A stretch of 64,000 bases of DNA from Eledone cirrhosa (Eukaryota), in assembly GCA_964016885.1 (NCBI GenBank), contig OZ024747.1:20336001-20400000 (forward strand), read 5' to 3'. Numbering within the stretch: position 1 is the stretch's first letter; every line of letters begins with the position of its first letter. The translations under genes were made by a program, and so were the position numbers. The notes beneath the pieces were generated by a model, which had not been told where the DNA came from, searched no databases, and worked only from the letters and a program-made list of their open reading frames with translations. Of the stretch, positions 344 through 45,640 are shown in pieces.

Positions 344-1090
344 GAATATATGATAGGGATAAACACTGATACAAGTATACATGTGTTTGCATTGCAAATG
401 ACCAAGTTACCTAGATTGAAAAATACTAATTAAAATAATACGGTTTGCCTGTCTCGATTTAAAATAATAAATCAATTAAAACAAACCTATATTGGCAATA
501 GCCGTGATACCTGGACAAATTTTAAATTTTAAATTTTAAATTTGTTTCGCAACAATTAAGTGAACTTTCCTATTCCTGTGCTCTTCTGCAGGTATCCACA
601 AATTGGTAAGTTTCACTTCAAAATACTTAAGAAGACTGAGAGAAATGTGTTGTTGAACGCACATGTGTCCCAGCGTCAAGCACGTCCTATACTCGTGTCA
701 CTAAAAATAGCAGCCGGTTTTATGGGAATAAAAAATGAGCTCAACGCATGGAGCCGAGAATATTATATATAGAGTTATAAACTCAAATAGTCTTTTACAA
801 TTAAATAGCTCAAAGAAAGGAATATTTCTGAGCCGTGTAATACAAATGAATATATGATAGGGATAAACACTGATAGAAGTATACATGTGTTTGCATTGCA
901 AATGACCAAGTTAGCTAGATTGAATTAATTAGTATTTTTCAATCTAGCTAACTTGGTCATTTGCAATGCAAACACATATATACTTGTATCAGTGTTTATC
1001 CCTATCATATATTCATTTGTATTACACGGCTCAGAAATATTCCTTTCTTTGAGCTATTTAACTGTAAAAGACTATTTGAGTTTACAACTC

Positions 1091-1100
<10 letters not shown>
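341..1100 (-). mobile_element. Fold-back HHR retroposon (PLE-related, family A): 504-bp terminally redundant unit plus inverted arm, flanked by (TA)n
   Basis: 341-420 is repeated at 845-924 (period 504). 761-924 is mirrored by ~938-1100. (TA)n on both sides. HHR on minus strand. Confidence 0.75.
506..596 (-). ncRNA. Type I hammerhead ribozyme, CAGAAGA core variant
   Basis: Minus strand reads GATACCTG-CAGAAGA-GCA..TGC-GAAA-CAAATTT..AAATTTG-TC-CAGGTATC: 8-bp stem I, stems II and III, GUC site. Confidence 0.8.
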
Positions 1101-1142
<42 letters not shown>

Positions 1143-3914: not shown

Positions 3915-3954
3915 TGATATTTATATATATATAAAGAGAGAGAGAGAGATAAAC

Positions 3955-4038
<84 letters not shown>

Positions 4039-4045
<7 letters not shown>

Positions 4046-4256
4046 TAACAGATTAAAGTTTAAGCAAAGAATCGCTGCTTTCACCCTTTGTTAGTTCAGA
4101 AGATCCCGTTAAGGGTGAAAGCAGCGATTCTTTGCTTAAACTTTAATCTTATTTAATGTTATTTTAATAAATATTTGCTCTACGGTTCTTATATATTTGA
4201 TATATATTTTCCTTATCGAGCCCTCTTTGGATTTTAGTCTTCAATTTTATTATTAT

Positions 4257-4260
<4 letters not shown>
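4039..4260 (+). mobile_element. Fold-back HHR retroposon (family D); HHR at 4093-4142
   Basis: Inverted arm 4039-4088, then the direct part with CAGAAGA-tCCC-GTTAA-GGGt-GAAA-GCA..TGC-TT-AAACT. (TA)n flanks. Several more copies in the window. Confidence 0.8.
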
Positions 4261-4335
<75 letters not shown>

Positions 4336-5549: not shown

Positions 5550-5642
<93 letters not shown>

Positions 5643-5659
5643 ATATATATATATGTATA

Positions 5660-5940
<281 letters not shown>

Positions 5941-9460: not shown

Positions 9461-9612
9461 TCGGACGCCATGCTTTCCAGCAAAGTTTCGTACCTTTACG
9501 GTCTGAGTTCAAATCCCGTCGAAGTTAACTTTGCCTTTCATCCTTACGGGATAAAATAAAGTAATGTACTGGGATAATTGCTGGCCTTGTGCCAAAAGTA
9601 GAAACAATTATT
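9461..9612 (+). mobile_element. Nin/Deu-domain tRNA-SINE (5'-eroded)
   Basis: GAGTTCAAATCC B-box, then GCCTTTCATCCTTACGGG..GCTGGCCTTGTGCCAAAAGTAGAAACAATTATT. Confidence 0.8.
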
Positions 9613-9809
9613 ACAATTAGATAAAGCAGTATGAAAAATAATGAACAGAAGACGAGAAGTTACACTGATAAACGAAATAACATGGATGTTGCATTAGCAA
9701 TATTAGTTTGACTCGAATTAATTCGGATGAGATATTTATTTTCAAGGTAGGAAATTACAGTTGAGTTTGAAAACCTGTTGCACAAGAAATAATTCCAATG
9801 TTCCAAAGG

Positions 9810-9968
9810 ATATGAGTCATGATATACACGTGTGCGTGTGTATGGAGGGGGGATATCAGGTGTAGTGTTTGTGAATTTCAGGAAGCATGGATGTTTTAAA
9901 GAATGCAGTGCCTCGGTAACTAACAACTGATGCAGGTCGTTTGTTCCATGCTTCAGCAACTCTGAGCA
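9810..9968 (-). mobile_element. CR1 fragment between ~70-bp direct repeats
   Basis: Matches 6293-6445. 9731-9800 is repeated at 10045-10114. Confidence 0.8.
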
Positions 9969-10625
9969 GGTGTAATGTCTTAATATATTTTGGCTTTCAA
10001 TTCATTTCACTGCATCATTGCAAAAAGAGTATTTCGTTCTTTGGGATATTTATTTTCAAGGTAGGAAATTACAGTTGAGTTTGAAAACCTGTTGCACAAG
10101 ACATAATTCCAATGCACTACCAGACACTTAAATTGCAACATCATTTCTTGAAACAAGAATTTTGAAGAACTTTCGCCACAACAGCTTCACCATGTTATAT
10201 AACTATGTATGATATATAGTAAGGCAAACAGCTATTTCAAAATAAAATTATGATAAATAAATAATACATTTTTAAAATGGTAACTGTATGAATGCATCTT
10301 TTAAACCTAAGGCTTCAAAAAAGTGCACCTGATGCCGTTTCAAGTTATTTAACGTAGTCTGTTTTAATGCACTATGTAAATTAATCTAGTTTCTGAAAGG
10401 TATAAAAAGAAGATAAAAAAGAACATATAAATACAAAATCATATAATTTTAATAATAAGAAAGAATAGAGTTGGAATTTTCAGATTTCATTTTTTGCAAG
10501 ATAAGAAAGAACTATACATTTTTTGTTAAAGTAATATTTTATATTCAACTGCAAATTTTAGTTTTGTTAAAACTTTTTTCCTCATCTATAAAGTTCCAGG
10601 ACATAGAAAAGAGTCTCTAACTTTT

Positions 10626-10714
<89 letters not shown>

Positions 10715-10804
10715 GTATATACAGAAACACACAAAGCATGGAGACACAAACACACGTACGCACAGATATATATATGTATGTATAAGTATATAGGTATATA
10801 TTTG

Positions 10805-10846
<42 letters not shown>

Positions 10847-10874
10847 CATATAAAAAATATATATATATACATAG

Positions 10875-10920
<46 letters not shown>

Positions 10921-11020
10921 CTATGTATATATATATTTTTTTCTATGTATGTATGTATATATATATATATATATATACACATACAAATATATACCTATAT
11001 ACTTATACATACATATATAT

Positions 11021-11085
<65 letters not shown>

Positions 11086-11145
11086 TGTAAACATCCCGAC
11101 CACCGTGCCGAGCGGTTTCGGCTTGTGTGTTCATCAAGTCTTTTT

Positions 11146-11230
<85 letters not shown>

Positions 11231-11231
<1 letters not shown>

Positions 11232-12139
11232 GAGGTGTGTCAGAAAAGTTCCAGGACTGATGTCACAATAGATTTATTTCAATTCCAAACTTCACAATAA
11301 GAGTTTTCTCCTTCAAAGTAATCCCCCTGGAGTATGTAACTGTAATCTTAGCTCTCTGCAGCGACCAAACCTTTTTCTTCATAATTGTATATACATGTCC
11401 TCTGTTTCAGGTCGTCAAGCAATGAGCACAGAGCAACGAACAAACTCGAAGTTTCTGGTACGGTTTGGGAAAACTCCGTCAGAAGCACTGGGATTGCTGC
11501 AGCAAGTGTATGGAGATGAGACGATGTCACGCTCACGTGTTTTTTTAGTGGTGCAAGAGGTTTAAAGAAGGACGCGAGGAAGTGGAAGATGACCCCCCAG
11601 GAGCCGAAGGGCCTCAACAATCAGAACTGATGTCAATGTTGAGCGCGTCAGGCAGATGGTGCGTAGGGATCGTCGGCTGAATGTTCGAATGAGCTGGACA
11701 TGAATCGGGACAGCGTCTGGAAGATTCTCACTGAAGATTTGGACATGCGGAAAGTCTGCGCGAAGATGGTGCCAAAACTGCCGAACGATGACCAGAAGGG
11801 TTGACGCATGCAAGTGTGCCAGGACATCCTCGAGCGTCTTGAAATCGAACCAGACTTGCTAGGGACAGTCATCAACGGTGATGAGTCATGGATCTTCGAG
11901 TAAGACCCGGAGGGAACCCGTTTTGAAGACGTGGACGACATCAAAAAGGCCGTGACGATGGAACTGCGGAGGATCCCGGAATAATCCTTCCAGGAGTGCG
12001 TGCAAGCGTAGCAGAAAAGGATGGAAAAGTGCATTAGACTCCAGGGGATTACTTTGAAAGAGAAAACCCTTAGTGTGAAGTTTGGGTTTGAAATAAATCT
12101 TTTGTGACATCAGTCCTGGAACTTTTCTGACCCACCTCG
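11231..12139 (+). mobile_element. Mariner DNA transposon, internally deleted
   Basis: Inverted ends CGAGGTG(T/G)GTCAGAAAAGTTCCAGGACTG... with TA flanks and a transposase relic inside. Confidence 0.92.
11422..12073 (+). pseudogene. Mariner transposase relic
   Basis: MSTEQRTNSKF..VYGDETMSRSRVF..RFKEGREEVEDDP..RKVCAKMVPK..GDESWIF, then a jump to GTRFEDVDDIK..KCIRLQGDYFE. Contains stops and frameshifts; most of the catalytic domain is missing. Confidence 0.9.
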
Positions 12140-12146
12140 TATATAT

Positions 12147-12936
12147 AATAAATGTAATCTGGGTTTTTCGAATATTAATAATAACATTCGACTCATTTGC
12201 AATTATGCAAACAAACCTCAATTGTATAGCCATGTCAGTAGAATGACCTTTCATTCTTGCTCTTGTGTTGGCATGGGAACAGAACTGCAGACACTAATAT
12301 TTCTTTGTATCAACCTTCATCAATACAGCTCAGTGTTCACTTGCCAAACTGTGAGAGCTAATGAAAATATATGCTATTTTCAAAAATACACAGTGACTGA
12401 TCGACCTGATTTGCATATTAGCAGACTGGCCAGTCAGTTTCCAGTACACGAGCGATAAATGGCCGGCTTTGCCAAATTCAAATAAAAAGAACATTTTCGC
12501 TCTACATGGCTGAATACAATAAATGTAATCTGAGTTTTTCGAATATTAATAATAACATTCGGATTCGTTTGCAATTATGCAAACAAGCCTCAATTTTATA
12601 GCCATGTCAGTAAAATGAACTCTTCATTCTTGCTCTTGTGTTGGCATGTGAACATAACTGTGTATTTTGAAATTAGCATATATTTACACAAGCTCTGGCA
12701 GTTTGGCAGGTGAACAGTGAGCTGTACTAATGAAGGGTGATACCCAGAAACATTACTGTCTGCAGTTCTGTTCACATGCCAACACAAGAGCAAGAATGAA
12801 GGGTTCATTCTCCTGACATGGCTATAAAATTGAGGCGTGTTTGCATAATTGCAAACGAATCGAATGTTATTATACATATTAGAAAAACTCAGATCACTTT
12901 TATTGTATTCAGCCATGTAGAGCAAAAACTTTCTTT
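12147..12936 (-). mobile_element. Fold-back HHR retroposon (family F): 371-bp terminally redundant unit plus inverted arm
   Basis: 12147-12287 is repeated at 12518-12660 (period 371). ~12657-12936 is an inverted copy. HHR copies at ~12270-12340 (-) and 12710-12775 (+). Confidence 0.8.
12710..12775 (+). ncRNA. Type I hammerhead ribozyme (point-mutated core)
   Basis: GTGAACAG-tg-AGCTGTA-CTAATGA-aGGG-TGATA-CCCa-GAAA-CATTACTG-TC-TGCAGTT-CTGTTCAC. The sister copy has TTGATGA, so the consensus is CTGATGA. Bulged stem I. Confidence 0.75.
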
Positions 12937-13903
12937 ATATATATATAGAGAGAGAGAGAGAGCTTTCTAATTCAGCGAATACCAAACAGTGCTCGTGGTA
13001 TATTTCTCAGGTACTCTGTGGGTGCAAGTTGTAACCCAGGGCTGTTGTTTTCTTCTAAGCATTGATTCTACAACTCCTGTATGAATATTGTAGACGCTCT
13101 TTCAAACAGACTCTACCTTATGAGTTTAAAAATAAAGAAACCTGAAGTGCGTTCAAACCCGAAAACCGGTTCTAGCAACTCTCCTACACACATTTGAGAG
13201 AGAGAACTGGGAACAGATGACAACTAAATATGAAAACTAAATATGACAACAATTCACCTTTCCTTAAACTCTTTTCACCAGAAATCTTCTGCAGACCAGT
13301 TTTACTTTACAGTGACCAAACAGAGCGTATTTAAATTTAAAATATCCACTGAATTACAATCACACCTTTACCCCTATGCATTTTAGAAAGGTATAAATTG
13401 TAGCGACTATCTATAATATACATAATCTTTTAGACTGTGAGATTAAACATTATTGTTGCACACAAGGATTGTGTTTTGTATTCATTTTAGTCACATATTT
13501 TCGTTAAACTTTCCCAAGACCTTTTATATTTATATATTCTAAATAAAGCCTTCCCACATGAATGAAAAGTTTTGAGGCAATCAAATCAGTAAAATGAAAC
13601 CTATTTCTTCTCTTCATAAATATTTAACTCAATTCTATAGCATTTTCTGATCTCCTTTTATATTAATAAATGTTGATAACACAGCCGCCCAAGTGGTAGA
13701 TCCAAGAGGAAATGGAAATATGAGAAATATGAATACTTATTAAACGACAATCACCAAGTTCAATAATGCAATTGAAATATAATAGTAAGAGAGTTATTAC
13801 AGATATTACAGAGGAATACAAATCTATCATAAACAAAGGTAGTATGCGCCCTATAATTGATGTTTAATAGTTTAAATAGTAAATAAAATGTGATTAAAAC
13901 ATT

Positions 13904-14937
13904 CTAGCATTCTTTTAGTCTAGCATTCATTTAGTCTAGCATTCATTTAGTCTAGCATTATTTTGTCTAGCATTCATTTAGTCTAGCATTCATTTAGTCT
14001 AGAATTCATTTAGTCTAGCATTCATTTGGCCTAGCATTCTTTTAGTCTAGCATTCATTTAGCCTAGCATTCATTTAGTCTAGCATTATTTTAGTTTAGTA
14101 TTCATTTAGTCTAGCATTCTTTTGTTCTAGCATTCTGTTAGTCTAGCATTCTTTTGGTCTATCATTCATTTAGTCTAGCATTCTTTTGGTCTAGCATTAA
14201 GTTAGTCTAGCATTCTTTTAATCTAGCATTCTTTTTGTTTAGCATTATTTTAGTTTAGCATTCATTTAGTCCAGTATTCTTTTAGTCTCGCATTCATTTG
14301 GTCTAGGATTCTTTTAGTCTAGCATTCATTTAATCTATCATTCATTTAGTCTAGCATTCATTTAGTCTAGAATTGTTTTAGTCTACCATTCAGTTTGTCT
14401 AGCATTCTTTTAGTTTAGCATTCATTGAGTTTAGCATTCTTTTGTTGTAGCATTCTTTTAGTATAGCATTCTTTTGGTCTAGCATTCTTTTGGTCTAGCA
14501 TTCATTTAATCTGGCATTCTTTTGGTCTAACATTATTTCAGTCTAGCATTCTTTTAGTCTAGCATTCTTTTAGTCTAGCATTTTTTTAGTTTAGCATCTA
14601 TTTAGTCTAGCATTCTTTTAGTTTAGCATTCATTTAGTCCAGCTTTCTTTTAGTCTAGCATTCATTTGGTCTAGCATTCTTTTAGTCTACCATTCATTTT
14701 GTCTAGCATTCATTTAGTTTACCATTCAGTTAGTCTACCATTCAGTTAGTCTAGCATTTTTTAGTCTAGCATTCTTTTAGTTTAGAATTCATTTAGTCTA
14801 GCATTCTTTTGGTCTAGCATTCTTTTAGTCTAGCATTCTTTTAGTCTAGCAATCTTTTAGTCCAACATTCATTTAGGCTAGCATTGTTTTAGTCTAGCAT
14901 TCTTTTCCTCTAGCATTCTTTTTGTCTAGCATTATTT
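13904..14937. repeat. 16-bp tandem satellite, ~64 copies, consensus GTCTAGCATTC(A/T)TTTA
   Basis: Direct inspection. Confidence 0.95.
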
Positions 14938-14947
14938 TAACCACTAG

Positions 14948-15602: not shown

Positions 15603-16806
15603 GTAAATAAATCGTCTAGAAATGAATTATATATATGCGGTTTAATAGAATAAATGATAGTGTAAAAGAAAAGCAGATTGTATGGAGAAATTAGTTTATT
15701 GTCATCTATATCTGGTATAAAAGAGAAAACCTTTATTTACAGGAACATTCAGTTATTTAATGAGACAGAGTGATGTTTCCTTCTATGCCAGCTTCCAAAC
15801 CTACCATTCGCATTCACAATATCTTAAACAATATGACGCATCATAAACAAACAAGTGAAATTTCATTCTATGCAATCCTCTGTTAGAACTAGTAAGATTG
15901 AATTCATAACGTAATAACAATGCTATATGACCAAAAAGAAATACATCTAGTGTAATATATTTTTGATTTTGTTGTTATAGGTTTTAGCCCCTATTAATAT
16001 AATCTATGATCTGATTAATACCAGCGAAGTGTATGTACAATATGTTGATCCTAGTGAAATGTATACACAAAATCTTTTATGTATAATATACATATATGCA
16101 GGTTTCACTAGCTGTTGCAGGATAACAGCTTAAAAGATACATAGTGAGACATATATATGATTTTTATGCATAAACATACATATGCCTACTTCTGCAGCCC
16201 TCTCTTATGAATCACGTTATGTTGAAGCTACTGCTAATATGACCATATGTTTTCCAACTAATTTTTTTTTTTTAAAGATAGGTTGTAGTTTGTAGGCGAT
16301 TAGCTTTGAGTTTCTAGCAGGCTAAGTAACATCTTAGTACATCTGTCTTTCACATGTATTACCCTTGACATCAAGAAAACCTTTGTTAGCAAATGCTCAA
16401 CTGTGAATTCAATCGCCAAGAGGAAATGTGAGCCAGTGAACGTAAATAGAGGTTTGATAGAATTAATCTCTTCTGCAGAAAATATACATGTACTGCCATC
16501 TCAATACACGCAACCAGATAAAATGGACTACATAGATACTGAGCTTCTATCCTGCTGTACAAATATTACTGACATGGCAAAAATCTTGACCTTACTCTTT
16601 AGAGTCAAGAGGCTTTCTAAAGGAAAATCTTGTATTCTTATTAATTCAATATGAATGAAGCATGATATACACCGGTGCCATATGCATCCGGGCCTGGGTG
16701 ACTGTTTAATACACAACATATATATATAATTTATGATAAACACAAACATCTGAGTGACCATACACCCGTCGCAAGCAGCGATTCTTTGCTTAAACTTTAA
16801 TCTGTC

Positions 16807-16909
<103 letters not shown>

Positions 16910-18789
16910 TATATATATATATATATACATTGCGAAGAGTGTATGGTGACTCAGATATTTGTTTTTATCTCAAATATATATTGATACAAATGTGATAAAA
17001 TGTAATAATATTATATTTTACAAACATCAACTCTGCTATGTTTTCCATTAATAAACTCTAAATGTGGTCACGATTCATGTCCGTATTATTTAAATAACTA
17101 ATTAGTTATCATATTCAAAGACTCTCATCGCAGACAGATGACTAGAAATCCGTGGAAAGATCACAGAATAGTGACAAAGCACTTTGATATGAATAGCAAA
17201 ATAATCAATTCATTAAATATTTAATTGATTAATTATTTTAATTAATAAAGAGTAGTCGGAAATGAATATAACCGTTCGTGATGCGTATGGCAGAGATTAT
17301 GTTTCAAAATTATGATTCCAAGTAGGGGATTTATCATCAATGCGAAATGCTTGATATATAAATATTGAATTTAGTGTTGAAATAATTGTTATGGCGCACA
17401 ATATTCTAAAGTTTTGAATGAAAGACCTTATTTTAATAACTAAAATTATATTAGTCATTTCAGCATGTGAGTAATGTCAGCCGAGCATGTTTCAGTATTA
17501 AACTTGCCGAACTAGTGATGAGGTTTTAAGTGTAATAAAATTCATGCGTATAATTATCATATTTACAAAATATAAAACTAAGGTCGAATGCTTAAAAATG
17601 CATTGCTCCTCATAAGAAAATCGTTAAGTTATTATACCATAATCAACATAGAAATAATTACGCTGCAACCAAGGAGCAATCCAGTGGCTTATAGAAGAGA
17701 GAATTATTTACACCATGTAGCGGAATAACACTTTTTATAGATTCATTCAACAAAGAATTATTAACACAGTAAATCAGGCATGGGCACCATTTTTGAGTAG
17801 TGAGCCACATAGAATGTAGCTCAAAATAAGATGAGCCACACTACTAAATATTTCAATTTTGAAATTAGGTGTGCCATTCAGATAAAACCAAACGGCCACA
17901 GTTTGTCCTTGACAGAACAAAACTAGTACAAGGGTTATTGGTATAAGGCTATATGATAAATAGTTTATCACAAAATTATCGAAATGCTGAATCATTACGA
18001 TGCCAATCTAAATGAGGATTGTTATCCATGAGGGAATATAATAAACACGTTGTACTATAACAAACACTGCTGAAGTGAACCTATCTAGTATATGTTTATT
18101 CAACAGAGAAGCCGCGAAGAAAACCGAAGTGTAAGGATAAAACAATAAAACAAAATGTAATGAAATATATGGCTTAACAAACCATATATGTGGCTGTAGT
18201 AATAGAAACGAATCCCCAAGTTAGATGCTCATTAGTGGCAGAATATCAAGGGAATCTTATTGGTTTTCTGAAAAGAATGGTTTTCATTTAATGAGATGTT
18301 GGTCAATTTAAAACAAACTGAAGCAATAAATTAGACTCTTTCCTCGGGATACTACTTTAACTAGCACATATCTTCTTTAATGTAATCCCTTGTATATAAA
18401 GCTTCATTCTACAGGAATCTTTATATCCGTATGAAAAATGTTTCAACATCACATTAGTTCTGTTCATTTTCATGAAAACCATAACAACATCAACGACAAA
18501 AGCCACCAACAACTTATATGTAGCCACCACCACCTCAAAACGCGGCATAATAACGGCACAAATAACGGCACAAATAACGGCATAATGAATTTCCAGAAAG
18601 TGGAGCTTGTGCCCAGTATCTCGACCAATGAGAAATAGTCACCAAATCTCCTTCCAGTCATATCCAATCATATAAATATAAAATATATATTGGATTATGT
18701 AGTCCTAAGTACATTGAGTTGTCTAGAAAAAGGCGAGTTGTTTATACATAGAACCGTCGTTTGTCATTTCCACACTTGTATAACATAAT

Positions 18790-18979
18790 TTTTTCTACTT
18801 CTGTTTGGCACAAGGCCAGCAATTACCCAGTACATTACTGGTACTTTATTTTATCGACCCCGTAAGGATGAAAGGCAAAGTTAACCTCGGCGGGATTTGA
18901 ACTCAGAATGGCAAGGGCCGTAACTCTATGCGTCAAAGCATGGCGTCCGACCCTCTACCGATACTGCCAATCCACCGCC
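18790..18979 (-). mobile_element. Full-length Nin/Deu-domain tRNA-SINE with TSD
   Basis: Reverse complement of the 27805 family. TSD CACTT(G/A)TATAACATAAT at 18773-18789 and 18979-18995. Confidence 0.9.
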
Positions 18980-21373
18980 ACTTATATAACATAATGCAAT
19001 GATTATCATAATTTAGTCCCCTATATCATCATAACCATTAGTAATACATAATCATTAGTAATGCATATCTCCACTTAGACACTAAACCTTCAGTTGTTCA
19101 CCCAACAGAAATTCCACTAATTGAAATTAAAGTGTAAGCACCTGGATATCTCGTAGACTTCCTGCACTTTAAAATCATGGTTGCATTAACCATTAATGAA
19201 AATAAGCATATGCTTAGTGTATTTAGTGAAGAGTGGCACTATTTTATCTAAATTGCATATATTTGTCATTAAGAAAAAAAAAAAGATTTTTGCAGGCTTT
19301 ATTGCCGTAGGGTTTTACGTCCTCAATATTACTTAATCCAGGTCTGGGTTACATGGATATTCTATTTGTTAAAGCTGTCCTGTACTCTCTCGTGTATTTT
19401 CTATATACTGACACTTGAGCTGATATGGTCATTAAGCAAAGTAAGCACCTGCTTAGGATAGCTAGAGAAGAGGGACACCATTTTATTAAAATGAAATTTA
19501 TTTGTCATCCCACTTTTTGTTTAACACTTTAATCTTTTAAGTGCTTAAGAGCACACAAAAAATTAACATATTATTCGAGGGGGCGGGGAATAGTTGACAT
19601 TCAGGTATAATCCAAACGATTATTTTTTTTACTACATTTTCCTTCTACTCAAATGCATTCACACGTTTGGGTCCCCACTCAGCTATAATATAATATTTGC
19701 CTAACATGATATACAATAATATCAAACACAAAACCTCATAATTCTGAAGCGAACTTGTTACCCATTCACTTCTGCGTTCCCTTACGTCATGGTATTACCT
19801 GCACCATCTCTATTGTAATTATTCTAAGAGCGGACCTTTATGAATGAGGATAGGCAGAGAAGTTAGAGCGTCAAGCAAAAATGATTTTGCATGATATAGT
19901 TAGGACCCGTTACCTTGTAAGTTCATATTCCGCCAAGGTCAGCTATTTCCAAGGTCAATAAAACAGTAATATTTATATTCTTTGTAATCGACTTCCTCGC
20001 CCCACATGATAATTTCATATTTTACAAAACTTCACGCCATCCAACTTAAACATTCTTACTCTTCTCAATAAATGCTAAACTTACACATTTTAAAATATAT
20101 CGATATATATTAGATAACGCTAGTATATGACTAATAGTTTACCCTTTAAAACTGATAAATGTTCTGGTATAGCCATGTTATCTAAAATCGAAATGTATGT
20201 CTATTCCAATTAAATTCTTCCGATAAATCTGTCATTTAATCTTAAATCTTCAATATATTTCCTTGGGGTCTTAGAGGCTTTGTCTGCACTTTCTAACTGA
20301 AAAAATATTAAATTGAATTTTATCATTTTTCTTTAATTATTGTAATATTAGCTGAAGTTCATTTAAAAGAAAAATACAAAAACGTTGAGTACTCATGTAA
20401 TCTTTTTATTTTTTTTATTTTTAATACATATTCAGTAATAGAAAATGGTGGTGGAATGGCAGAGTTGGTAAAGTGTCAGATAAAATACAATTGTAATATT
20501 TATTCTGTCTGTTTACACACTGAGTTAAATCCAACCATGTTCGACTTTGCATATCAACCTTCCGGGATCGTGAGAATATAATCCCAGTCAATAAATGTTG
20601 TTGGTTCAATCACCTTCTTACTACCCTTCAAATGCCTTTGGCTGATTTAATAAACACCTTCGTCCTGTCCTCCAATATGTCTGGCCTTGTGCCTAAATTA
20701 GAAATCAATAATTATTTAGTGAGAGAAAGAGATGGAATCAATCCCCATGATAATTTTAGGAATAGAAACTTTTGTAATATTCTAAGATTTGCAAAGCAAG
20801 TGAATTATGTTATTTTTTAAAAACAGATTTTGTTAGTAGTTTCTAATTTCATAGTCTTATCTTTGATGGCTATTTAAGTATATAGTTAATAGCTATAGCC
20901 AAGCCACGTGGATTTCATAATCTTACATCTTCCCTTTAGCTGTAACAACTGTTTAGTCTAGACGTTATTTCCCTATACAATGAAATACATTAAAGTTTTT
21001 TTTAGTAGTTATTAATCATCATTAAGACTAGTTTACTGAAGTGTTATAACTGTGTTAATTAGCTAATATTTTTAATCGTGGTAAAAACGCGCTTTGAACA
21101 TTTAAGCAGGTAAAAATGTATATTTTCCTTAAATATAAATTTTGCTTGCTCTTAATTGTAATATACATAAGTATTGCACCTGAATAAAACATTGAATGAA
21201 AAATGCTCTACCAAATACGAATTTTAGCATGTATAAACTATATTTGAGCTGATTTAAGGTATAGTATGATTTAAATATGTTTTATTTCAAACCATTTTCA
21301 TACCCAACCAACACACGTATAATGGATAATTCAGCAGATAGTTACGAATAGATAAACTCCACACCATCTGATG

Positions 21374-21864: not shown

Positions 21865-22314
<450 letters not shown>

Positions 22315-24609: not shown

Positions 24610-25069
24610 GTATATATAGTATATGTGTGTGTAAGTGTGTGAATGTGTGTGTATGTGTACATATGTGCGTATTTGAATTAATATATAAGTGAATTCTAAT
24701 TTCACGAAATTTATAGCAGACTTGATGACAATGATGATGAAGATGACGATGACGATGATGATGATGACAATGATGATGAAGATGACGATGACGATGATGA
24801 TGACGGTACTGATAAAGAGATTAATAATATCGATGTGAAAAAGGACAACTATTATAATGTAGAAGATATGAACAGTTATATTAACAGCAATGATGCAAAT
24901 TGGTATAGTAAACCATTAAAACCAGACGAAACTATTGATAAATGAAACAACAGTGCAAAAACAAGTCAGACAATTAACATAGACATAGGTGTAATAGCAA
25001 CAGAGTTTCCTGACCATATTATAATTCTCTCTAGCCATTCTACCAATCCACCAACCTAGAAATTATATC

Positions 25070-25240
25070 AATAATTGTTTCTACTGTTGGCACAAGGCTA
25101 TCAATTATCCCAGTGCATTACTGGTACTTTATTTTATCGACCCCGTAAGGATGAAAGGCAAAGTTAACCTCGGCGGGATTTGAACTCAGACTGTAAAGGG
25201 ACGTAACTATGCTAGAAAGCATGTCGTCCAACCCTCTTCC
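25070..25240 (-). mobile_element. Nin/Deu-domain tRNA-SINE
   Basis: CTGGTACTTTATTTTATCGACCCCGTAAGGATGAAAGGCAAAG core. Confidence 0.85.
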
Positions 25241-26542: not shown

Positions 26543-26794
26543 TTTTATCGACATCGGAAGGAACAATGGCAAAATTGTCCTCGGCAGTATTTGTATTAAG
26601 AACGTAGTAGAATCATATCTAAATACCACAAACGTATATAGTCCGATGCTGCACCGACTCAGCCAATCCAGTGCCCTAGTAAAAATACAAATAATGATTG
26701 GTCACATAAGTATGCAGCCATAAAATGAGAAAGACAAAGTCAACATCAGCAGAGTTTCACCCCAGAATATCTATTTTCATTATTAGTGTCCCTT

Positions 26795-26921
26795 TATGAT
26801 CTGAGTTCAAATCCCGCCGAGGTTAACTTTGCTTTTCATCCTTGCGGGGTCGCTAAAATAAAGTACCAGTAATGTACTGGGTATTTGCTGGCCATGTGCC
26901 AAAAAATAGAAACAATTATTA
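26795..26921 (+). mobile_element. Nin/Deu-domain SINE, 5'-truncated
   Basis: Matches 27872-27995. Confidence 0.85.
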
Positions 26922-27804
26922 GTGTTGCTGTTGTCTTGTCTTAATTTGTTATTGCTGTTATTGTTAATATTGTTCTTAATAGTATTGATTTTTGCTATCA
27001 AAGACCATTAGTTTGATGAAATGTTTGCTATTGAAATATTGAGTTGATCGAATCGTTGAAGAAGCTCCCATCTCTTATAACGACATGCCTATGTCTATGT
27101 CACTATTACAACTGATTATTATTATAGTTAATTACTATAATTATGTATTACCGCCGTGGTAGGAATCTCAAACCAGAACGAATATTTCAATTGACATTGA
27201 GAAAGTCAGAGTGGGTGATTACCGAGTCTGTAAAATTATCATTAGTAAAATACCACACAAAATATGAGTTTATGTATAATTTTTCATCATCTGTTTAAAT
27301 TCTGAGTTCAAACTTTCAGACGAGACAGCATTTAAAACCCAAACCATGCAAGAAAAGGTGCCCCACAACGGGGAGAAATGAGACAAAATAGGGAGATTTT
27401 ACATAATGAAACCTATACCCACTTTCACAAGAGAAGACATCTCTCACCCATCCCAAAGTGGGTGGGAGATCACCCCGTTGGATGGGGATAGTTGGCAGGC
27501 CTGAATTTAACTGGTTGTAATTGTATCTTTCCCCAGTTCCAGAAAGCGGAGATGTATTGCAAACACTACGATAGATTTAATCGATGAATTGTACATGACA
27601 ACACAACCTCAGTTTCTCTTCTTTACATCTATGGCCTATGTGCCAAAGTCATAAATCAATTGAAGAATTACGATTGCTAACTAAAATCTGGCAAGGGCTC
27701 GATTTTTCTTGTATTTTTTTATATATTTAATTTGATCGAATAACTTCCAGTTGTGTGTTGTGAACTGAATCGATAATCAATGCACATTATTTACAATTAG
27801 ATCA

Positions 27805-27995
27805 GGGCGGTGGATTGGCAGTATCGGTAGAGGGTCTGACGCCATGCTTTCCAGCATAGTTACGTCCCTTTACGATCTGAGTTCAAATCCTGCCGAGGTT
27901 GACTTTGCTTTTCATCCTTACGGGGTCGATAAAATAAAGTACCAGTAATGCACTGGTTAATTGCTGGCCTTGTGCCTAAAGTATAAACAATTATT
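27805..27995 (+). mobile_element. Full-length Nin/Deu-domain tRNA-SINE with 18-bp TSD
   Basis: GGCGGTGGATTGGCAGTATCGG..GAGTTCAAATCC..TTTCATCCTTACGGGGTCGATAAAATAAAGTACCAG. TSD ATTATTTACAATTAGATC at 27786-27803 and 27990-28007. Confidence 0.92.
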
Positions 27996-29985
27996 TACAA
28001 TTAGATCGTGTGTCAGTGTATGATGAGCATTAACATTTCGCTTGTGAGGGTTTTAGATAATAGAATCGGTAGAGCAGCTGTTACAATACCTTGTGACATG
28101 CAATTATATCTATTTACCTTCTAAGTTGAAATCCAATCGAGATAGAATTTGTCTAACCTACTATGGTAACATTGATATCAATATATAATCCACAATAGTC
28201 TCCAGTTAACATGTACCCTTATATTCATATTAAAATCATTTGTTTAAAGCGGCGGATTCTTCTTCTTCTAACCCACTTACAGCGGTGAATTGATTCATGA
28301 ATTCGTTAGATAGAATAAGTCGGATTATACGTCGTGCTCTCTGTTCTATGTTGATATCCTTTCGGGGTCGATAAAGACGTGATAGTCCAGTACAGGTAGG
28401 GGTATCAGTAATGTATCTTTAATTTAAAGACCAGCGTCTTCGCGTTGTGCCAACAGATTTTGGGTGTCAAATACCGTAATAGAAAAGAATCAATTCTAAT
28501 GTCAATAGTGCATTAGAAAGGAAGACAGAGAGAAAGCCACGTGGAGGTTTCAATAACTAGAAATAGAAGATCAATTTCCCTTCAACTATTCCCTGCCACT
28601 TTTCTTTCTCAAAAGTAAAATGTTTTAGTCAATAGTTGAAATAGAAAGACGAAAATGTGATGGCAGGAAGATAGGACGATCGAGAAATAAACAACAACAA
28701 CTAGATAAACAACCTGCAAAATTATTTATCCATATTATTAGTATATTCTATCTTAGGTCAACACACTTCTTTAGAATGCTCGTCGCTATAATTCAATTCT
28801 ATGCAAGTAAGCACAACTGAGTAAAAACAGTAAAATACTTCGATAGCGATACTTTAATATTACTGAGTTTTCTAGTATGCAATATTGACTTCAAGACATT
28901 TTATGCTAATGGATGATGGGGGATGTATACACGATGCAATTATAAGTGTATTTATATCACATGCCAACATGTATAATCCATCATTCAGTCAGAATATGTG
29001 TAGAGTAAACATATGGAAGAAAGTACGACCATGTACAGACATTGGATTGGATGAGCTTTTGAATTTTGAGTATTAAGTTAATTTGCTTACTACGAACTAA
29101 TGATGGTAGGGATGGAGGCCACCGTACAAAATTGTTACATATGTTACATACGTTATTGACTGCAGAAAGATTAAGTCTACACCACCCAAACGATATTCAA
29201 ATTTATAAATTGTACGGGGCGTAAAGAAGTTGTGAATTATTTCTACAAATTTAGCTCACATGCGCAAACATGAAGACCCAGATTACGAGAAGAGATTAGA
29301 TCAATGCCTGTCGACATTTCTTACCCTGCCTCCCATTTAGATTTTTTTTATTTAAGACTGCACCCCTCCGTATTTGGACAATGTTAGTATATAAAATAAG
29401 TAAATATATACACCCCATTCTGAAGTCCCACTTCCTTTCAAAATATTGCAGCATATCACTGATCCACCTTGCGAAATACTGTAGCAGATGATATAGCCTT
29501 AGATAACTGTAAAACAAATGAACGGAATGTAGGCATAGGTTTGTTTCACTATGGATGAGCTGGGCTTTAACGACAACAGCAACAAAAGCGGCAGTTGCAG
29601 TAGCAACAAGAACAAAAACAGCTGAACTGATAAAACACAACTAAATAGCAATGACTACACATGGTTTGGGTGCATGTAAGCCATATATATATCAGTGTAT
29701 AATGCATGGTAGAGTATGCCAAGAATATTTTATACAAAACCAACATATGTGATACGTGGTTATCATTAAAGTGAATACAAGCGTAATTATATATACTTGT
29801 TACTAGATTCCATGCCTAAAATAATGTTAAAGTGTTTCTACAATTTTATTTAAATATATATGAAAGACGGTGAGTTATATCGCTACGTGTAAATGAATGT
29901 GTGTGTGTCTGTATGTGTGTGTGTATGCATGTGTGTGTGTATGTGTGTTTTGCTCGTGTAATAAACACGCCTTTATATATACACG

Positions 29986-36268: not shown

Positions 36269-39200
36269 TGTTTCTTTTATTTGCCACAAGGGCATCAAAA
36301 GTGGGACAAGTACAATGGGGGGAGTTTACAAAACAAGGCGTCCTCAATAGGGAGGAGGCAATAACAATATATAAAAATAAAATAAAATATAACAATAAAT
36401 AGAATTATAACAAAATCCTCAATAGAGGATTTTGTTATAAAATATAACAAAAAATAAAATTTATAACAAAATCCTCAATAGAGAGGAGGCGCCTTGGGGG
36501 GTCGCACACACCCCCGAAAAAAGTGTGCAACCCTTTTCCTCAGGAGCACAGAGAGGGGGTGCTCCCTTGTTCCTTCCTCTTTTCCACCTACAGGCTCATG
36601 TAAAGAGAAGGCCCATTCACACGGGCCATTCTCGCCACTTTCACCCACCTTTCATAAAAACGACTGGGGTGCAGCACCTCTCTCTCCATCCTGATCCTTC
36701 TTCCGAAATGATATCGGAAGAAACGGACCAGTTGTTGGCCAGAGAGAAAGGTGCCTGACCTCAGTCCTTTCAGACGCGTCCACCATACAACCTCTTTCGC
36801 CATGGCTATTACGCACAGAAACACCGCCTCTGCTTCATCTTTGAAGGTGGGAGGCGGCTTGATCATTACAATAGACTCGGTGGCCAACCGGATCGGTCCC
36901 ACCCTTGACAGCAGTTGTTCGACATAGCCCCACAGATCGGCTACGCCCGAGCAGTGTACCAATGCGTGTGTAACGGTTTCCTCGTCGCACACGCATCTGG
37001 GACAGATCTTTTTGGCGGGGTCTCTACCCGGGCGCCCGTGTCTGTAGAGCCTTTCTCGAACGGGTAAAGCTCCTCGGTAGCACTGCCAGGCCAGGGACTT
37101 CTGGAAGTTGTCCATAGGTCCCGGGCTGAATGTCCTACCGAACAGGCTGGCCAGTTCGTCCTCCTCCATGTCTAGGGCTTCTCCGAGGGCGTCGTCGCAC
37201 CTGCTGCGTACCAGCCCTCTATAGAATGTTGCGGTGGAGTCTCCACTGATAACCGGATCCGCCTGCCAGAGGGCGGTGAGCGCCTGGGCACACTCAGTGT
37301 GCCAGGCGCCCAGTTTTCTCGGTCTTTGCTTGACCCAGGATTGCAGCTCGGTGAGTGAGACGAGTCTGGGAAAGGTTCGTCTCACAAACGAGGCCCACAC
37401 CGGTTGTCCGGTGAGGAATACGTAGAGGTGCCGTAGCCTTAATGCGTGTTTACGCATCATTAGCCACGGCATCCCCAGCCCTCCTTTCGAAGGGTGTTGA
37501 CAGCAGATGGATCTCCTCACCATAGGAGCCCGCCTCTTCCAAAGGAATTGGAAGAGCGCGCGCTCCATCTTTGTGAGGGTTTCCCTTGGGCAGGGCACTG
37601 CGGTCAGGCGGTAGTAGATGACGGACGCTATATAAGTGTTCGCCACCTCCGCCCGACCTTTCAGGGATAGTTTGCAACTGGCCCACTTCTGTGTCAGTGC
37701 AAACACCCTGTTCGTAACCTCCGCCCAGTTTTTCTCCACCTGGAGGTCCGGTCCGAACCAGACCCCGAGCAACTTCACCGAGCCCTCCGTCCAGCGTCCG
37801 ACGACGCCATCGGAGGGCATCGGTCTGCCCCTCCACGTGCCGAGTTGCAAACCGATCGACTTGTCCCGGTTCAGCTTAGCCCCTGTGAACTTTTCGTACT
37901 CCTCCAGTAAGGTGCCGACCGCCTCGATCCCGGAGGCCGTCGACACCATTACTGTCACGTCATCGGCGTAGGCCGACACCGCTTTCCGCAATCCCGGTTC
38001 CAAAGGGATGCCCTGCAACAACTCCAACTTCCGCAGTAGTGGCTCGAGAGTCAACACATACAGAAGGGAGGAGAGAGGGCACCCTTGTCGGATGGACCGA
38101 GAGGTAGCCGTTCACCTTGACCCTAGAGCAGATGCGGCTGCTATGCATAGCAGTGATCCAGCCCCTGAAAACGGGTCCGAAGCCTGCCGCCGCTAGCACC
38201 GCATCCAGGTAACCATGGTCGACCCTATCGAACGCCTTAGATTGATCCAAGTTGATCAGAGCCCCACCAAAGCCGGGTTCGTTCCCAACCCTCTCTATGA
38301 TGTATCGCATGAGGTGGAGGTTGTCATGGATGGACCTGGACGGGATAGCGCATGTCTGCGCATCTCCCACCAGGTTGCCCACGACAAGCGCCAACCTCTT
38401 TGCTAGCACCTTGGCCAAAATCTGTAACTCTGTATTTAGCAGAGTTATGAGCCTGAAGTTACTTATTTCGTCCCCCTTGTTCTCGTCCTTCCTCACTAGC
38501 GTGACTACGCCCTTGGTCACAGCACAGGGAATTCTCCCGTTCTGTTGCCAGTTGCAGTAGACCGCCTCGAGGAAATCGGGGAACAAGTCCGGCATAGCTA
38601 GATATAATTCGTAAGGAAGACCATCGAGACCGGGGATTTGCGTTTGCCGCATTGGCTCAGCACGTCCTCTATCTCAGCGGCCGAAATCGGCTCCTCGCAG
38701 GACTTCGCCTCCCTGTCCGAGAGGCGCGGCAGGCCGTCGAGGTATGGACCGAAGTCCACGTTCCCAACCGGCTCCCCGCCCCTCCCGAACAGTCAGGAAA
38801 AGTGCCTTTGAAAGGCCTCACACATCTGCTTAGGCTCAAGAATCGCCCGTCCATCCAGGTCTCGCAAAGACCGGATGGTGGATTTAGTTCCACTGTTGGC
38901 CTCTGTCACGCGGGCCCAGCTAACAGCTTTGGTTCCCTCGTTCCCTAGAGCACGTATTTTACTTCGGACAACGCAGCCTTCGTGCTTCGCGTCGAAAAAC
39001 TGGCTCAAAGCCGTTCTCGACGCTAGCACTCTGGCCACGTCGCCGCTTCTAATTGCCTCTTCTACTCTATCTATTAGCTCCCTTTCCTTCCTATTCCTAT
39101 CCGCAGCTAGAACCTTACTAAATTCTATCGAGACTACTCTAATCTCTCTCTTTAGAGATACCCACCACCTGCTGTTGACGATCGCTCCAGTCAACCGTTC

Positions 39201-40054
39201 CTTAACTAACGTACTAATCCGATTCCTGTAGGCTCTACTTGCCGGCAAGGACAAGTTGAGCTTCCAGTAACCGGGGCCCTGTCTATGAGTTCTGTCAAGG
39301 TTGACCATGCAGGTCACTAATTTGTGGTCTGAATAGCCAACCATGCGCATTTTTGGACAACTTAAAAAGTCCTTATCCTTAATTCTAACTAAGAACCTAT
39401 CTAGGTACGACCTAGATGATCCGCTACGATTTGCCCAAGTCCAGGTTGGCGCAGTCGGAAAATCTAGTCGATATCTATCGGCCAGGTCAAATCGACCGAT
39501 TAACCCTTTGAGGCTATTACACCCCTCTCTATCGGTGCAGGCCCCTACGTAGTCCCAGCGTGCATCTAGGATACCATTCCAGTCCCCCACTAATAGCAAG
39601 GAGCGGGACGTCCCTAGAAAAGTCTCCAGACGATGGAAGAAGTCCGGCCGCATTGACCCGAAAGGGCCGTAGGCGGCTACCAACCTAAACGCTCCGCCTT
39701 TACCACTGCCAAGGTCCTGAACCACTAGTCGACCCTCCGGGTCCAGATGTACCATCTGTGTTGCGAGACCCAGATGTTTTTGCAGCAGAACGACAACTCC
39801 AACCCCACCTCCGGGCTGACAGAGAGATGCGTGCATCTCAAAGTTATCAAAGGTGGGGGCCAGCTGTCGCACGTTGCTGATCCGGGCCTCGCAAATAACC
39901 ATCACATCTATACGTTGTGACCTGAGGTCATTTAGAAGCATTGCTTGCTTCCAAGTTGAGCCCAGGCCACGCGCATTTAAACAGCCTACTCTTAGCATAG
40001 CCATGTTGGTGGTGAAGAGAAAAGGCACTTACCTCTCTGCGTCCCGGGTATCGA
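36268..40054 (-). mobile_element. Tx1/L1-clade non-LTR retrotransposon, 5'-truncated just upstream of ORF2, inserted in (TATC)n
   Basis: GC-rich island with APE, RT and CCHC domains. 3' end CTTGTGGCAAATAAAAGAAAC. (GATA)n on both flanks. Confidence 0.92.
36588..40004 (-). pseudogene. Frameshifted ORF2: AP endonuclease, reverse transcriptase and CCHC finger
   Basis: GCLNARGL, GDWN, YLDRFL, SDHKLV (38793-40004). PGLDGLP, RLITLLNTE, LDQSKAFDRVDH (37960-38652). RQGCPLS, AYADDV, CPRC..ETVTHALVHC (36588-38100). At least 2 frameshifts. Confidence 0.92.
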
Positions 40055-40198
40055 GATAGATAGATAGATAGATAGATAGACATATATATATATATATATA
40101 GAGTGAGAGAGAGGGGATAGATAACTTTCTATTTAAGAGAAAGGGAGATAGATAGATAGATAAATAGATATATAGATAGATAGATAGGTAGATACATT

Positions 40199-40261
<63 letters not shown>

Positions 40262-40262
<1 letters not shown>

Positions 40263-41139
40263 TCTTTATTTGCCACAGGGGCGTACAAAAATGGGACATT
40301 ACAAGACGTGACGGCGGGGGTTTTACATAAAAATAACTTTAACATTAATAAATAACAATAAACTATATATAAGGAACACGTTTTATAGGTATTCCTGTCT
40401 TCCCTCTGTTTATCTTCCTCAACCTACAGGTTTATATACAGAAAAGGGCCATTCACTCGGGTGATTTTCGCCACATTCACCCACCTTTCAGCGAATTTAC
40501 TGGAGTGTGGCACCTCTCTCTCCACTCTCACCTTCCTTCTGAAGTGATACTTAAAGAAGGGCATAAGTTGTTGTGCGGAGAGAAAGGTGTTTGCCCTCAG
40601 TCCTTTTAACCTCGTCCACCATATTACCTCTTTCGTCATAGCCACCAGACAGAGGAAAACCGCCTCTCCTTCGTTCTTAAATGAAGGCGGCGGGATGATC
40701 CTCACGATGGACTCGGCTGACAACTGGATGCGTTCCACACGTGACAGCAGCTGTTCGACATATTTCCACAGGTCGGTCACCCCTGGGCACTGAACAATTT
40801 CGTGCAGAACGGTTTCGATGTCCTTCTCGCATCTTGGACAAGTCCTTTTAGCAGGATCTCTGCCAGGGCGTCCGTGCCTGTAGATTTTGTCTCGAACTGG
40901 TAGAGCTACTCGGTAGCACTGCCAGGCCAGAGACCCCTGGAAGTTAACCATAGGCCCTGGACGGAAAGTCCTCCCGGACAGACTGGTCAGTTCGCCCTCC
41001 TCGATGCCTAAATTTTCCCCGATAATCTCGTCGCACTTATCCTCCACTAATCCCCTATAGAATGTCGAAGTGTAGTCTCCGCTGATTGCCGTTTCCGCTT
41101 GGTAGAGGGGTGTGAGCGCCTGTAGGCACTCAATGTGCC

Positions 41140-41140
<1 letters not shown>
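40262..41140 (-). mobile_element. Second, diverged Tx1-like copy (3' ~880 bp) in (TATC)n
   Basis: WHIECLQAL..LAWQCYRVALPVRD..CPRC..ETVLHEIVQC is homologous to the first copy. Same 3' end TGTGGCAAATAAAG. (GATA)n flanks. Confidence 0.9.
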
Positions 41141-41230
<90 letters not shown>

Positions 41231-41231
41231 T

Positions 41232-41288
<57 letters not shown>

Positions 41289-41578
41289 CAGATAGATAGA
41301 TAGATAGACAATTAGATGGAGCGATAGATAGAAGATATGTTTCTCACCTTCTCTTAAAAACGTATTCTATAGACCGAGATATCTGAATCTCATTAATAAC
41401 ATATTTCGTGAAAAAAAGAAAGTCTACAAGAGACAATTCAATGTAATTAATTTTCGCTTTGAAGCGCTTCTAAAATTCATTTCACAGCAGATTTCAGTGC
41501 GATCCTGCTTCTTCCATCTCCCCTCTACCTCTCTCTCAATCTCTATATCCCATATATATATATATATATATTTATATA

Positions 41579-42374: not shown

Positions 42375-42379
<5 letters not shown>

Positions 42380-42521
42380 AAAAAGTATGTCTCTGACGGC
42401 AGAGCTCAAGCCGTTTCGACGTCGGAGTCATACTTTTTCCTATTTCCCACTCTACTACCCTAAGTATTGAGTACTCTGATGCGTTATGGTACATATGGTT
42501 CGTTACCACAATTCCTTCGTT
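42375..42521 (+). mobile_element. Fold-back retroposon (family E), short
   Basis: Inverted arm 42375-42420 is joined to the direct part at GTCGGAGTC. Shared tail CCCACTCTACTACCCTAAGTATTGAGTACT..CCTTCGT. Confidence 0.75.
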
Positions 42522-42540
42522 ATATATAAAAGATTATATA

Positions 42541-45637: not shown

Positions 45638-45640
<3 letters not shown>

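What the first reader, a model, noticed from the sequence alone, without database searches (positions are those of the whole stretch)
12147..12936. 371-bp ORF-less unit whose 5' end maps to its own ribozyme cleavage site (retrozyme/mini-PLE)
Seen: read on minus, the direct arm starts at 12660 with CAGTTATGTTCAC, about 2 nt downstream of the predicted GUC^TGCAGTTCTGTTCAC cut. It runs one full 371-nt period through the next HHR and ~140 nt beyond, and an inverted arm is fused at a short microhomology. Inference: the cDNA was copied to the very end of an HHR-cleaved RNA, which would be a genomic fossil of ribozyme activity in vivo. The terminal redundancy fits either a tandem pseudo-LTR transcript or more than one turn around a circular RNA, as established for metazoan non-LTR retrozymes.
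Basis: partly seen in the sequence, partly recalled or inferred. Interest (0 to 1): 0.82.

Follow-up and report, generated by a model that had tools for sequence, protein, structure and literature searches.

The report
Penelope-type hammerhead retrozyme, two-armed insertion
This is one old, decayed copy of a common non-coding jumping repeat that carries a predicted self-cutting RNA motif and has the two-armed shape typical of Penelope-like retrotransposon insertions; one arm stops two bases from the predicted cut site, which may record self-cutting in the cell but fits chance about as well.

Summary
The anatomy is confirmed. A 514-nt minus-strand arm (one 371-nt ORF-less unit plus 143 nt) is fused head-to-head, through a 4-nt microhomology, to a 280-nt inverted arm. 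Each arm holds a type I hammerhead with one core mutation; relatives' majority letters restore the core.

It is not a local duplication: sequencing runs of organism A hold a high-copy family. Both outer ends lie in (TA)n at two recurrent family sites 33 nt apart, the Penelope "tail". Best reading: a non-autonomous retrozyme inserted by a Penelope-like enzyme priming from both DNA ends.

The headline claim is only partly supported. The arm starts at cut+3 (chance about 4%). In one run, 6 contigs begin exactly at cut+1 with unrelated flanks (p about 0.003–0.05, from a truncated table). But contig depth shows no step at the cut, and only 1 of 13 listed fold-back joints lies at cut+1..+7. Cut-site ends look like a minority class.

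Cleavage, expression and circularity are untested. No genome was held, and the runs do not cover this locus's flank. The scan noted the same design before, in other families of this genome. Verdict: new member of a known kind.

The parts
12147..12660 (-). Direct arm, 514 nt = 1.39 units; starts at cut+3, ends 143 nt past the second predicted cut, in TA
12290..12660 (-). One 371-nt monomer, from cut+3 to the next GUC; no long ORF; predicted highly self-paired
   Evidence: longest stop-free frame 71 aa; MFE -112.3 kcal/mol, z -6.1; antisense z -4.3, flank control z -0.3
12275..12345 (-). Type I hammerhead of the direct arm, decayed: core 12323-12317 with C3U, stem II broken, GAAA 12303-12300, GUC 12292-12290, predicted cut 12290|12289
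   Evidence: majority letters of runs X1-X3 and X8 restore the core and stem II
12147..12289 (-). Terminal redundancy, cut+1 to cut+143; ends at the family's main (TA)n junction site (equivalent to 12519 in the first unit)
   Evidence: 51, 58 and 64 contigs with TA loose ends at 12519 in X1, X2, X3 and 678 reads in X8
12657..12660 (.). Head-to-head junction, 4-nt microhomology ACTG
   Evidence: an overlap of 4 nt or more occurs in 2.5% of random arm pairs
12657..12936 (+). Inverted arm, 280 nt, from cut-104 to cut+176
12706..12782 (+). Type I hammerhead of the inverted arm: core 12727-12733 with G5A, stem II GGGU/ACCC, GAAA 12747-12750, short stem III, GUC 12758-12760, predicted cut after 12760
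   Evidence: only hit of the window-wide hammerhead scan; fold z -2.9; majority A12729G and C12756G
12904..12936 (+). 33-nt 'tail' present at the inverted end only; its end matches a second recurrent (TA)n junction site
   Evidence: alignment to unit 1; 43 contigs in X2 with A-run plus TA loose ends at 12495 (the row is listed for 1 of 3 contig runs)
12396..12430 (.). Internal segment of about 33 nt, single here, apparently present in 2-3 copies in many family members
   Evidence: joints going back 30-35 with letters between, over 1,000 and over 2,000 reads in X8 (tables 5 and 5c)
12936..12962 (.). Right target flank, (TA)n(GA)n
11231..12139 (.). Neighbour, not part of the element: decayed mariner-like transposon with TA on both sides, abutting the left end
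   Evidence: inverted repeat arms 11223-11326 and 12044-12147, 93%; weak HTH_48 hit, E 0.0029, below cut-off

Best explanation
This is one decayed copy of a high-copy, ORF-less, hammerhead-bearing 371-nt repeat, likely a non-LTR retrozyme inserted into a (TA)n run by a Penelope-like RT/GIY-YIG enzyme, and its long arm probably ended by running off an RNA 5' end made by hammerhead cleavage. Shown: two head-to-head arms, outer ends at two recurrent family sites (cut+143 and cut+176), a 4-nt junction microhomology, and an intact hammerhead core in the family majority. Inferred: a tandem array is transcribed and the weak, probably dimer-dependent hammerheads cut only some sites, giving a multimeric RNA with a cut 5' end. 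The borrowed enzyme nicks both strands of (TA)n and starts reverse transcription from each DNA end at its two internal start sites. One cDNA reads through an uncut hammerhead and runs off at the cut end (514 nt); the other stops after 280 nt. The two cDNA ends anneal at ACTG and 2 nt are trimmed. I put the element class and Penelope-type insertion at about 0.88 and the run-off at a cut end at about 0.5.
For: Anatomy. High-copy family: 9,963-11,130 contigs laid per run on 11900-13200 (a stretch that includes the mariner end), and 2,806 contigs and 26,275 reads on the 145-nt hammerhead stretch alone. Unit path bridged by other copies: records 12227-12412, 12408-12585, 12497-12654. Both outer ends match recurrent TA junction sites. 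Core restored in 15,928 of 16,726 X9 reads at 12729. The stem III segment of the direct-arm hammerhead self-pairs over 10 bp, -6.4 kcal/mol. 6 X2 contigs start exactly at 12761 = cut+1 with unrelated flanks, agreement 0.53, median 51 nt (p 0.003-0.055). The three copies differ in a star-like way and share a minority haplotype at 12773-12774, compatible with one template. Literature: partial tandem, inverted 5' copy, 30-40 bp tail and microsatellite bias (PMC8557442); both-strand nicking and two internal RT starts (PMC11167929).
Against: One locus, at cut+3 rather than cut+1, at a microhomology. The 6 contigs are about 4% of 161 partly laid contigs outside the listed variant rows, and 237 of 249 rows are hidden, so other positions may match them. 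No cut-site row is among the 24 of 2,205 loose-end rows shown. X2 depth rises 339k, 375k, 405k across the cut, like neighbouring bins. 1 of 13 X9 joints at cut+1..+7 versus 0.85 expected. Both arms read through a cut site, so the template was partly uncut or re-ligated. The family hammerhead has A opposite A next to the core instead of the usual closing pair. The runs have zero depth on the right flank 12956-13200, so they are probably a related species or lack this locus. No autonomous partner was found. For the anole element, cleavage was dispensable in vitro and no RNA-seq reads began at the cut (PMC11167929).
Confidence: 0.5

Rival explanations
1. Same element and enzyme, but the template was a circle or an uncut multimer; the long arm went 1.39 turns and was joined where a microhomology (or a pause in the stem I hairpin) allowed, near the cut by coincidence.
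For: Both read-through GUC junctions are perfect, with no indel. The 4-nt microhomology is rare by chance (2.5%), so it shaped the junction. X9 joints are scattered from cut-53 to cut+53. No depth step at the cut. The monomer is predicted highly self-paired. Circles are the main form of known retrozyme RNAs (PMC7229834).
Against: Needs a 2-4% coincidence. The 6 contigs at exactly cut+1 show that ends at the cut do occur.
Confidence: 0.3
2. The template was the fully cut linear monomer; RT ran off its 5' end, jumped to a monomer 3' end, copied one more unit and ran off again, which gives 143 + 371 nt.
For: Predicts the arm length almost exactly (514 nt). End-to-end template jumping is known for R2 RT (recalled, not checked).
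Against: Jumps should often leave indels or extra bases at GUC; both junctions here are clean, and no indel at 10% or more was listed across the cut in X2 or X9.
Confidence: 0.08
3. The 'unit' is a partial tandem of 5'-truncated pseudo-LTR pieces of an autonomous Penelope-like element, not a non-autonomous monomer.
For: The anatomy is that of canonical PLE insertions. In the anole element the RT starts lie a similar distance past the hammerhead. Contig depth is several-fold higher at the 3' end than in mid-unit.
Against: Contigs of other copies bridge the place where an ORF would have to lie (12408-12585, 12408-12545). No consistent loose end leading off into other sequence is among the rows shown. 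No ORF.
Confidence: 0.1
4. A local DNA-level duplication and inversion of a single decayed repeat, with no RNA step.
For: Only one such locus in the 64-kb window.
Against: Both outer ends coincide with recurrent family TA junctions and the family is high-copy.
Confidence: 0.02

Closest known systems
Metazoan non-LTR retrozymes (Cervera and de la Pena 2020, PMC7229834, parts 2-4 of 6 read; Li, Clavereau and Pollet 2026, bioRxiv 10.64898/2026.07.22.740005, parts 1-3 of 5 read)
   Same: ORF-less repeat of 170-400 nt with a type I hammerhead and a predicted self-paired fold; mussel units are 350-390 bp; Penelope-like elements are proposed as mobilisers.
   Different: Only 1.39 units here, both hammerheads mutated, expression untested. 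In the parts read, neither paper maps insertion ends, two fixed 3' sites or head-to-head arms.
Endonuclease-positive Penelope-like elements (Craig et al. 2021, PMC8557442, passages read; Cervera and de la Pena 2014, PMC4209133, parts 1-2 of 4 read)
   Same: Partial tandem, inverted 5'-truncated copy, 30-40 bp tail at one end, microsatellite target; small hammerhead with palindromic helix III; opposite-strand hammerhead pairs 100-700 bp apart were already noted.
   Different: No RT/GIY-YIG ORF; the clade of the helper is unknown. Naiads target (TA)n but lack canonical hammerheads.
Poseidon element of Anolis, PAc (Frangieh et al. 2024, PMC11167929, parts 1-2 of 4 read)
   Same: Nicks both strands of AT-rich DNA and starts RT at two internal sites that define the tail, downstream of the hammerhead cut.
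   Different: Autonomous; cleavage was dispensable in vitro and no reads began at the cut, whereas here a few genomic ends lie at the cut.
R2 retrotransposons with HDV-like ribozymes (Eickbush et al. 2013, PMC3774820, abstract only)
   Same: The ribozyme cut sets the RNA 5' end, and genomic 5' junctions reflect it, with chance microhomology.
   Different: Different ribozyme and enzyme; in R2 this is the rule for full-length copies, here at most a minority class.

Membership tests
Metazoan non-LTR retrozyme | Type I hammerhead in the repeat unit | tested here: met
   Stem I, CUGAUGA-type core, stem II, GAAA, short stem III and GUC in both arms; core intact in the family majority. Rfam gave no match at gathering score.
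Metazoan non-LTR retrozyme | Head-to-tail repeat of about 170-400 nt | tested here: met
   Period 371-373; the path is bridged by contigs of other copies. Long arrays were not seen, as records are short.
Metazoan non-LTR retrozyme | Two consecutive units with complete hammerheads ('active' in Li et al. 2026) | tested here: not met
   One mutated hammerhead per arm at this locus. This concerns activity of this copy, not family class.
Metazoan non-LTR retrozyme | No protein coding | tested here: met
   Longest stop-free frame 71 aa on the circularised monomer; the two overlapping ORFs of 100 aa or more that were scanned have no Pfam hit.
Metazoan non-LTR retrozyme | Highly self-paired monomer | tested here: met
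   z -6.1, 0 of 100 shuffles fold as well; 68% of bases paired when folded as a circle.
Metazoan non-LTR retrozyme | Expressed as linear and circular monomer RNA | not testable with these tools
   Needs RNA; see Tried and rejected.
Metazoan non-LTR retrozyme | Self-cleavage at the predicted site | not testable with these tools
   Needs an in vitro assay; 1 of 9 predicted Xenopus dimers cleaved in Li et al..
Metazoan non-LTR retrozyme | Target-site duplication longer than 4 bp when present | tested here: inconclusive
   Both flanks are (TA)n and the left is interrupted by a mariner-like element.
EN+ Penelope-like element | Partial tandem with inverted 5'-truncated copy at the 5' end | tested here: met
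EN+ Penelope-like element | 30-40 bp tail at one end | tested here: met
   Ends at cut+143 and cut+176, both recurrent in the family.
EN+ Penelope-like element | Microsatellite insertion bias | tested here: met
   TA flanks here; 51-64 contigs per run with TA loose ends at one site.
EN+ Penelope-like element | Minimal hammerhead with G10.1-C11.1 pair next to the core | tested here: inconclusive
   An extra A follows A9 as described, but a further A precedes G12, with no majority change listed there; helix III is self-complementary.
EN+ Penelope-like element | ORF with RT and GIY-YIG endonuclease | tested here: not met
   None in the unit, so this is not an autonomous PLE; it looks like PLE cargo.
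Retroelement with ribozyme-defined 5' end (R2-like behaviour) | 5' junctions concentrate at the cleavage site | tested here: inconclusive
   6 contigs at cut+1 in X2, but no depth step and 1 of 13 joints in X9.

The most novel reading that the evidence does not exclude
Insertions of this family record two steps that are proposed but, in the papers read, not shown for animal retrozymes: a Penelope-type enzyme primes the same small RNA from both ends of a broken (TA)n site at two fixed points, and part of its templates are hammerhead-cut RNAs whose 5' end is written into DNA. The share of cut-site ends per family would then be a genomic read-out of hammerhead cleavage in the germline.
Probability: 0.45. 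Interest if true: 0.6.

Novelty: new member of a known kind. Interest (0 to 1): 0.38.

Why it matters
The role of hammerheads in Penelope-like elements is open: cleavage was dispensable in the one in vitro system, and Penelope mobilisation of retrozymes rests on co-occurrence and sequence similarity. A high-copy family with two fixed 3' start sites and a measurable class of cut-site 5' ends makes both questions testable from genome sequence and with a short RNA in vitro. This locus alone proves little, and the scan has younger examples of the same design.

Tried and rejected
No whole genome is held, so the breakpoint histogram could not be built. Rfam at gathering score: 0 matches in the window. 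No second copy in the window. Sequencing-run search: no RNA holder listed, which is no evidence on expression; 5 of 10 listed runs were laid (X1, X2, X3, X8, X9); X4-X7 and X10 were not, so the small shares in organisms B-D are not evidence. A core-motif scan of metagenome contigs gave 13 loci, none similar to the element beyond the motif. The look-up of earlier findings by sequence and near this place gave nothing. ADAR scar: A>G is 3 of 31 listed locus-versus-majority differences, not enriched (only top-listed rows used). 'Both read-through hammerheads were already dead in the template': both cores would be hit by decay alone with probability 0.27, and the cluster of changes in the direct-arm hammerhead is weak (p 0.015-0.06, post hoc). 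Autonomous partner: Pfam scans of 16 and 60 window ORFs found only an L1-like element, an RT fragment and a weak GIY-YIG remnant with no DNA similarity to this unit. Supplements of the papers were not read (those of the preprint are closed); Fig. S2 of PMC11167929 and Fig. S9 of PMC7229834 may bear on junction claims.

Full report
Observation. On the minus strand a 514-nt arm runs from 12660 to 12147: one 371-nt unit and 143 nt more. It begins at the third base after the predicted GUC cut. A 280-nt inverted arm runs on plus from 12657 to about 12936, from 104 nt before a cut site to 176 nt after it. The arms meet head-to-head and share ACTG at 12657-12660, so the long arm's breakpoint lies between cut+3 and cut+7. 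The three copies of the post-cut segment are 89-92% identical and differ by private changes only, so the insertion is old. Both outer ends lie in TA repeats; the left one abuts a decayed mariner-like element. The monomer has no frame over 71 codons and folds far better than shuffles (z -6.1; flank control z -0.3).

The ribozyme. Each arm has a type I hammerhead layout with a long stem I, a 4-bp stem II and a very short stem III. Both are damaged: G5A in the inverted arm, C3U and a broken stem II in the direct arm. Rfam gave no match at gathering score. The majority letters in related runs restore the core (15,928 of 16,726 reads at 12729 in X9) and make the stem III segment self-complementary, as in hammerheads that work as dimers (PMC4209133). 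One oddity is general to the family: an A faces an A between core and stem II. Cleavage is untested.

The family. No genome is held. Ten runs were listed and five were laid. Runs of organism A hold the element at high copy: 2,806 contigs in X2 and 26,275 reads in X9 on 145 nt. Contigs from other copies chain round the whole unit (12227-12412, 12408-12585, 12497-12654), so the ORF-less unit is a family property and not a local duplication. All four runs have zero depth on the right flank, so organism A is probably a relative or lacks this locus. Many copies appear to carry one or two extra 33-nt internal segments.

The 3' ends. In X1, X2 and X3, 51, 58 and 64 contigs leave the element for (TA)n at 12519, the site equivalent to this locus's left end. 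In X2, 43 contigs do so near 12495, which matches the right end within a few bases once an A-run is counted (24 of 2,205 rows were shown). Two fixed ends 33 nt apart, an inverted 5' copy, a partial tandem and a microsatellite target are the described anatomy of Penelope-like insertions (PMC8557442). A purified Penelope-type protein nicks both strands of AT-rich DNA and starts at two internal sites that define this tail (PMC11167929). I infer priming from both DNA ends, followed by joining of the two cDNAs.

The 5' end, for. A breakpoint within cut+1..+7 has a chance of 1.9% per arm and 3.7% for either arm. In X2, 6 contigs begin exactly at 12761, the first base after the cut, with unrelated flanks (agreement 0.53, median 51 nt). 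Of 269 partly laid contigs, 117 are in the six listed rows. Spreading the other 152, plus 9, over 60-114 eligible positions gives 1.4-2.7 expected and p 0.003-0.055.

The 5' end, against. 237 of 249 loose-end rows were hidden and the ranking is not by count, so other positions may equal the cut. The 6 contigs are about 4% of 161. X2 depth climbs through the cut without a step (326k, 339k, 375k, 405k in 5-nt bins, like neighbouring bins). In X9, 15 of 25 joint rows were shown, giving 13 distinct positions from cut-53 to cut+53; one lies at cut+1..+7, against 0.85 expected, though these may include library chimeras. A 4-nt overlap arises in only 2.5% of random arm pairs, so microhomology shaped this junction and could have trimmed a longer cDNA. 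Both arms also read cleanly through a cut site.

Mechanism. I commit to a partly cleaved multimeric RNA with a cut 5' end, copied from both DNA ends by a borrowed Penelope-like enzyme (0.5). A circle or uncut multimer with a chance stop near the cut is the main rival (0.3). Truncated ends of an autonomous element (0.1), monomer jumping (0.08) and local duplication (0.02) follow. The element class stands in the first, second and fourth of these.

Known relatives. It fits metazoan non-LTR retrozymes in size, fold and ribozyme (PMC7229834), and a 2026 preprint argues that these derive from Penelope pseudo-LTRs. Ribozyme-set 5' junctions are known for R2 (PMC3774820, abstract). Seven paper searches listed no paper that maps retrozyme insertion ends to the hammerhead cut and none describing a cephalopod retrozyme; the library lacks most subscription papers and supplements were not read.

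Earlier notes of this scan (unchecked AI notes) describe the same two-armed design in 310-, 422- and 467-nt families of this genome and call the host a cephalopod; I did not test the host label. They are split on cut-site ends: one reports turns more often just past the cut, two report that other copies end elsewhere.

Verdict. A real, decayed insertion of a new family of a known kind. The Penelope footprint is well supported; the cleavage fossil is about even odds for this locus and at most a minority class in the family. Interest 0.38.

Noticed in passing
window 11231-12139: Decayed mariner-like transposon with inverted repeats at 93% and TA on both sides; weak Mos1-type HTH hit (E 0.0029); high-copy in organism A.
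   Followed up: partly
window 12396-12430: A 33-nt internal segment varies in copy number in the family, suggesting units of about 371, 404 and 437 nt (joints).
   Followed up: partly
window 12706-12742 (run X2): 36 contigs diverge upstream of 12742 but keep the core: a second subfamily whose stem I change would turn a G-U into an A-U pair.
   Followed up: no
window 42378-42800: Small two-armed element in (TA)n followed by a GIY-YIG-like remnant (Pfam E 0.0072, below cut-off) and a CA-rich tail: probably another Penelope-like family, unrelated in DNA to the finding.
   Followed up: partly
window 22003-22218 and 5554-5939: Related small elements in (TA)n, one with a 131-nt near-perfect palindrome; may belong to the rearranged-hammerhead family of earlier notes, not tested.
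   Followed up: no
window 36591-41311 (minus): L1/Tx1-like retrotransposon pieces: endonuclease, RT and zf-RVT hits, with a diverged duplicate of the 3' part.
   Followed up: partly
window 63289-63999 (minus): RT fragment, RVT_1 E 5e-15, cut by the window end.
   Followed up: no
window 9461-9622, 18785-19007, 25060-25240, 26788-26920, 27772-28007, 44816-45013, 49598-49765, 59687-59827, 59993-60175: Nine copies of a 130-220 nt dispersed repeat with a shared start and variable ends, SINE-like (label by inference).
   Followed up: partly
window 13865-14940: 16-nt satellite of about 1 kb.
   Followed up: no
window 760-1102, 45638-45963, 46906-47319, 47214-48348, 57280-57444: Several long, near-perfect palindromes, some nested and sharing sequence with 3917-4335 and 16773-16930.
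   Followed up: no
L001:792-824, L003:3001-3033, L004:315-347, L011:113-145, L012:3001-3033: Hammerhead-like cores with a paired stem II in metagenome contigs, unrelated to this family.
   Followed up: no
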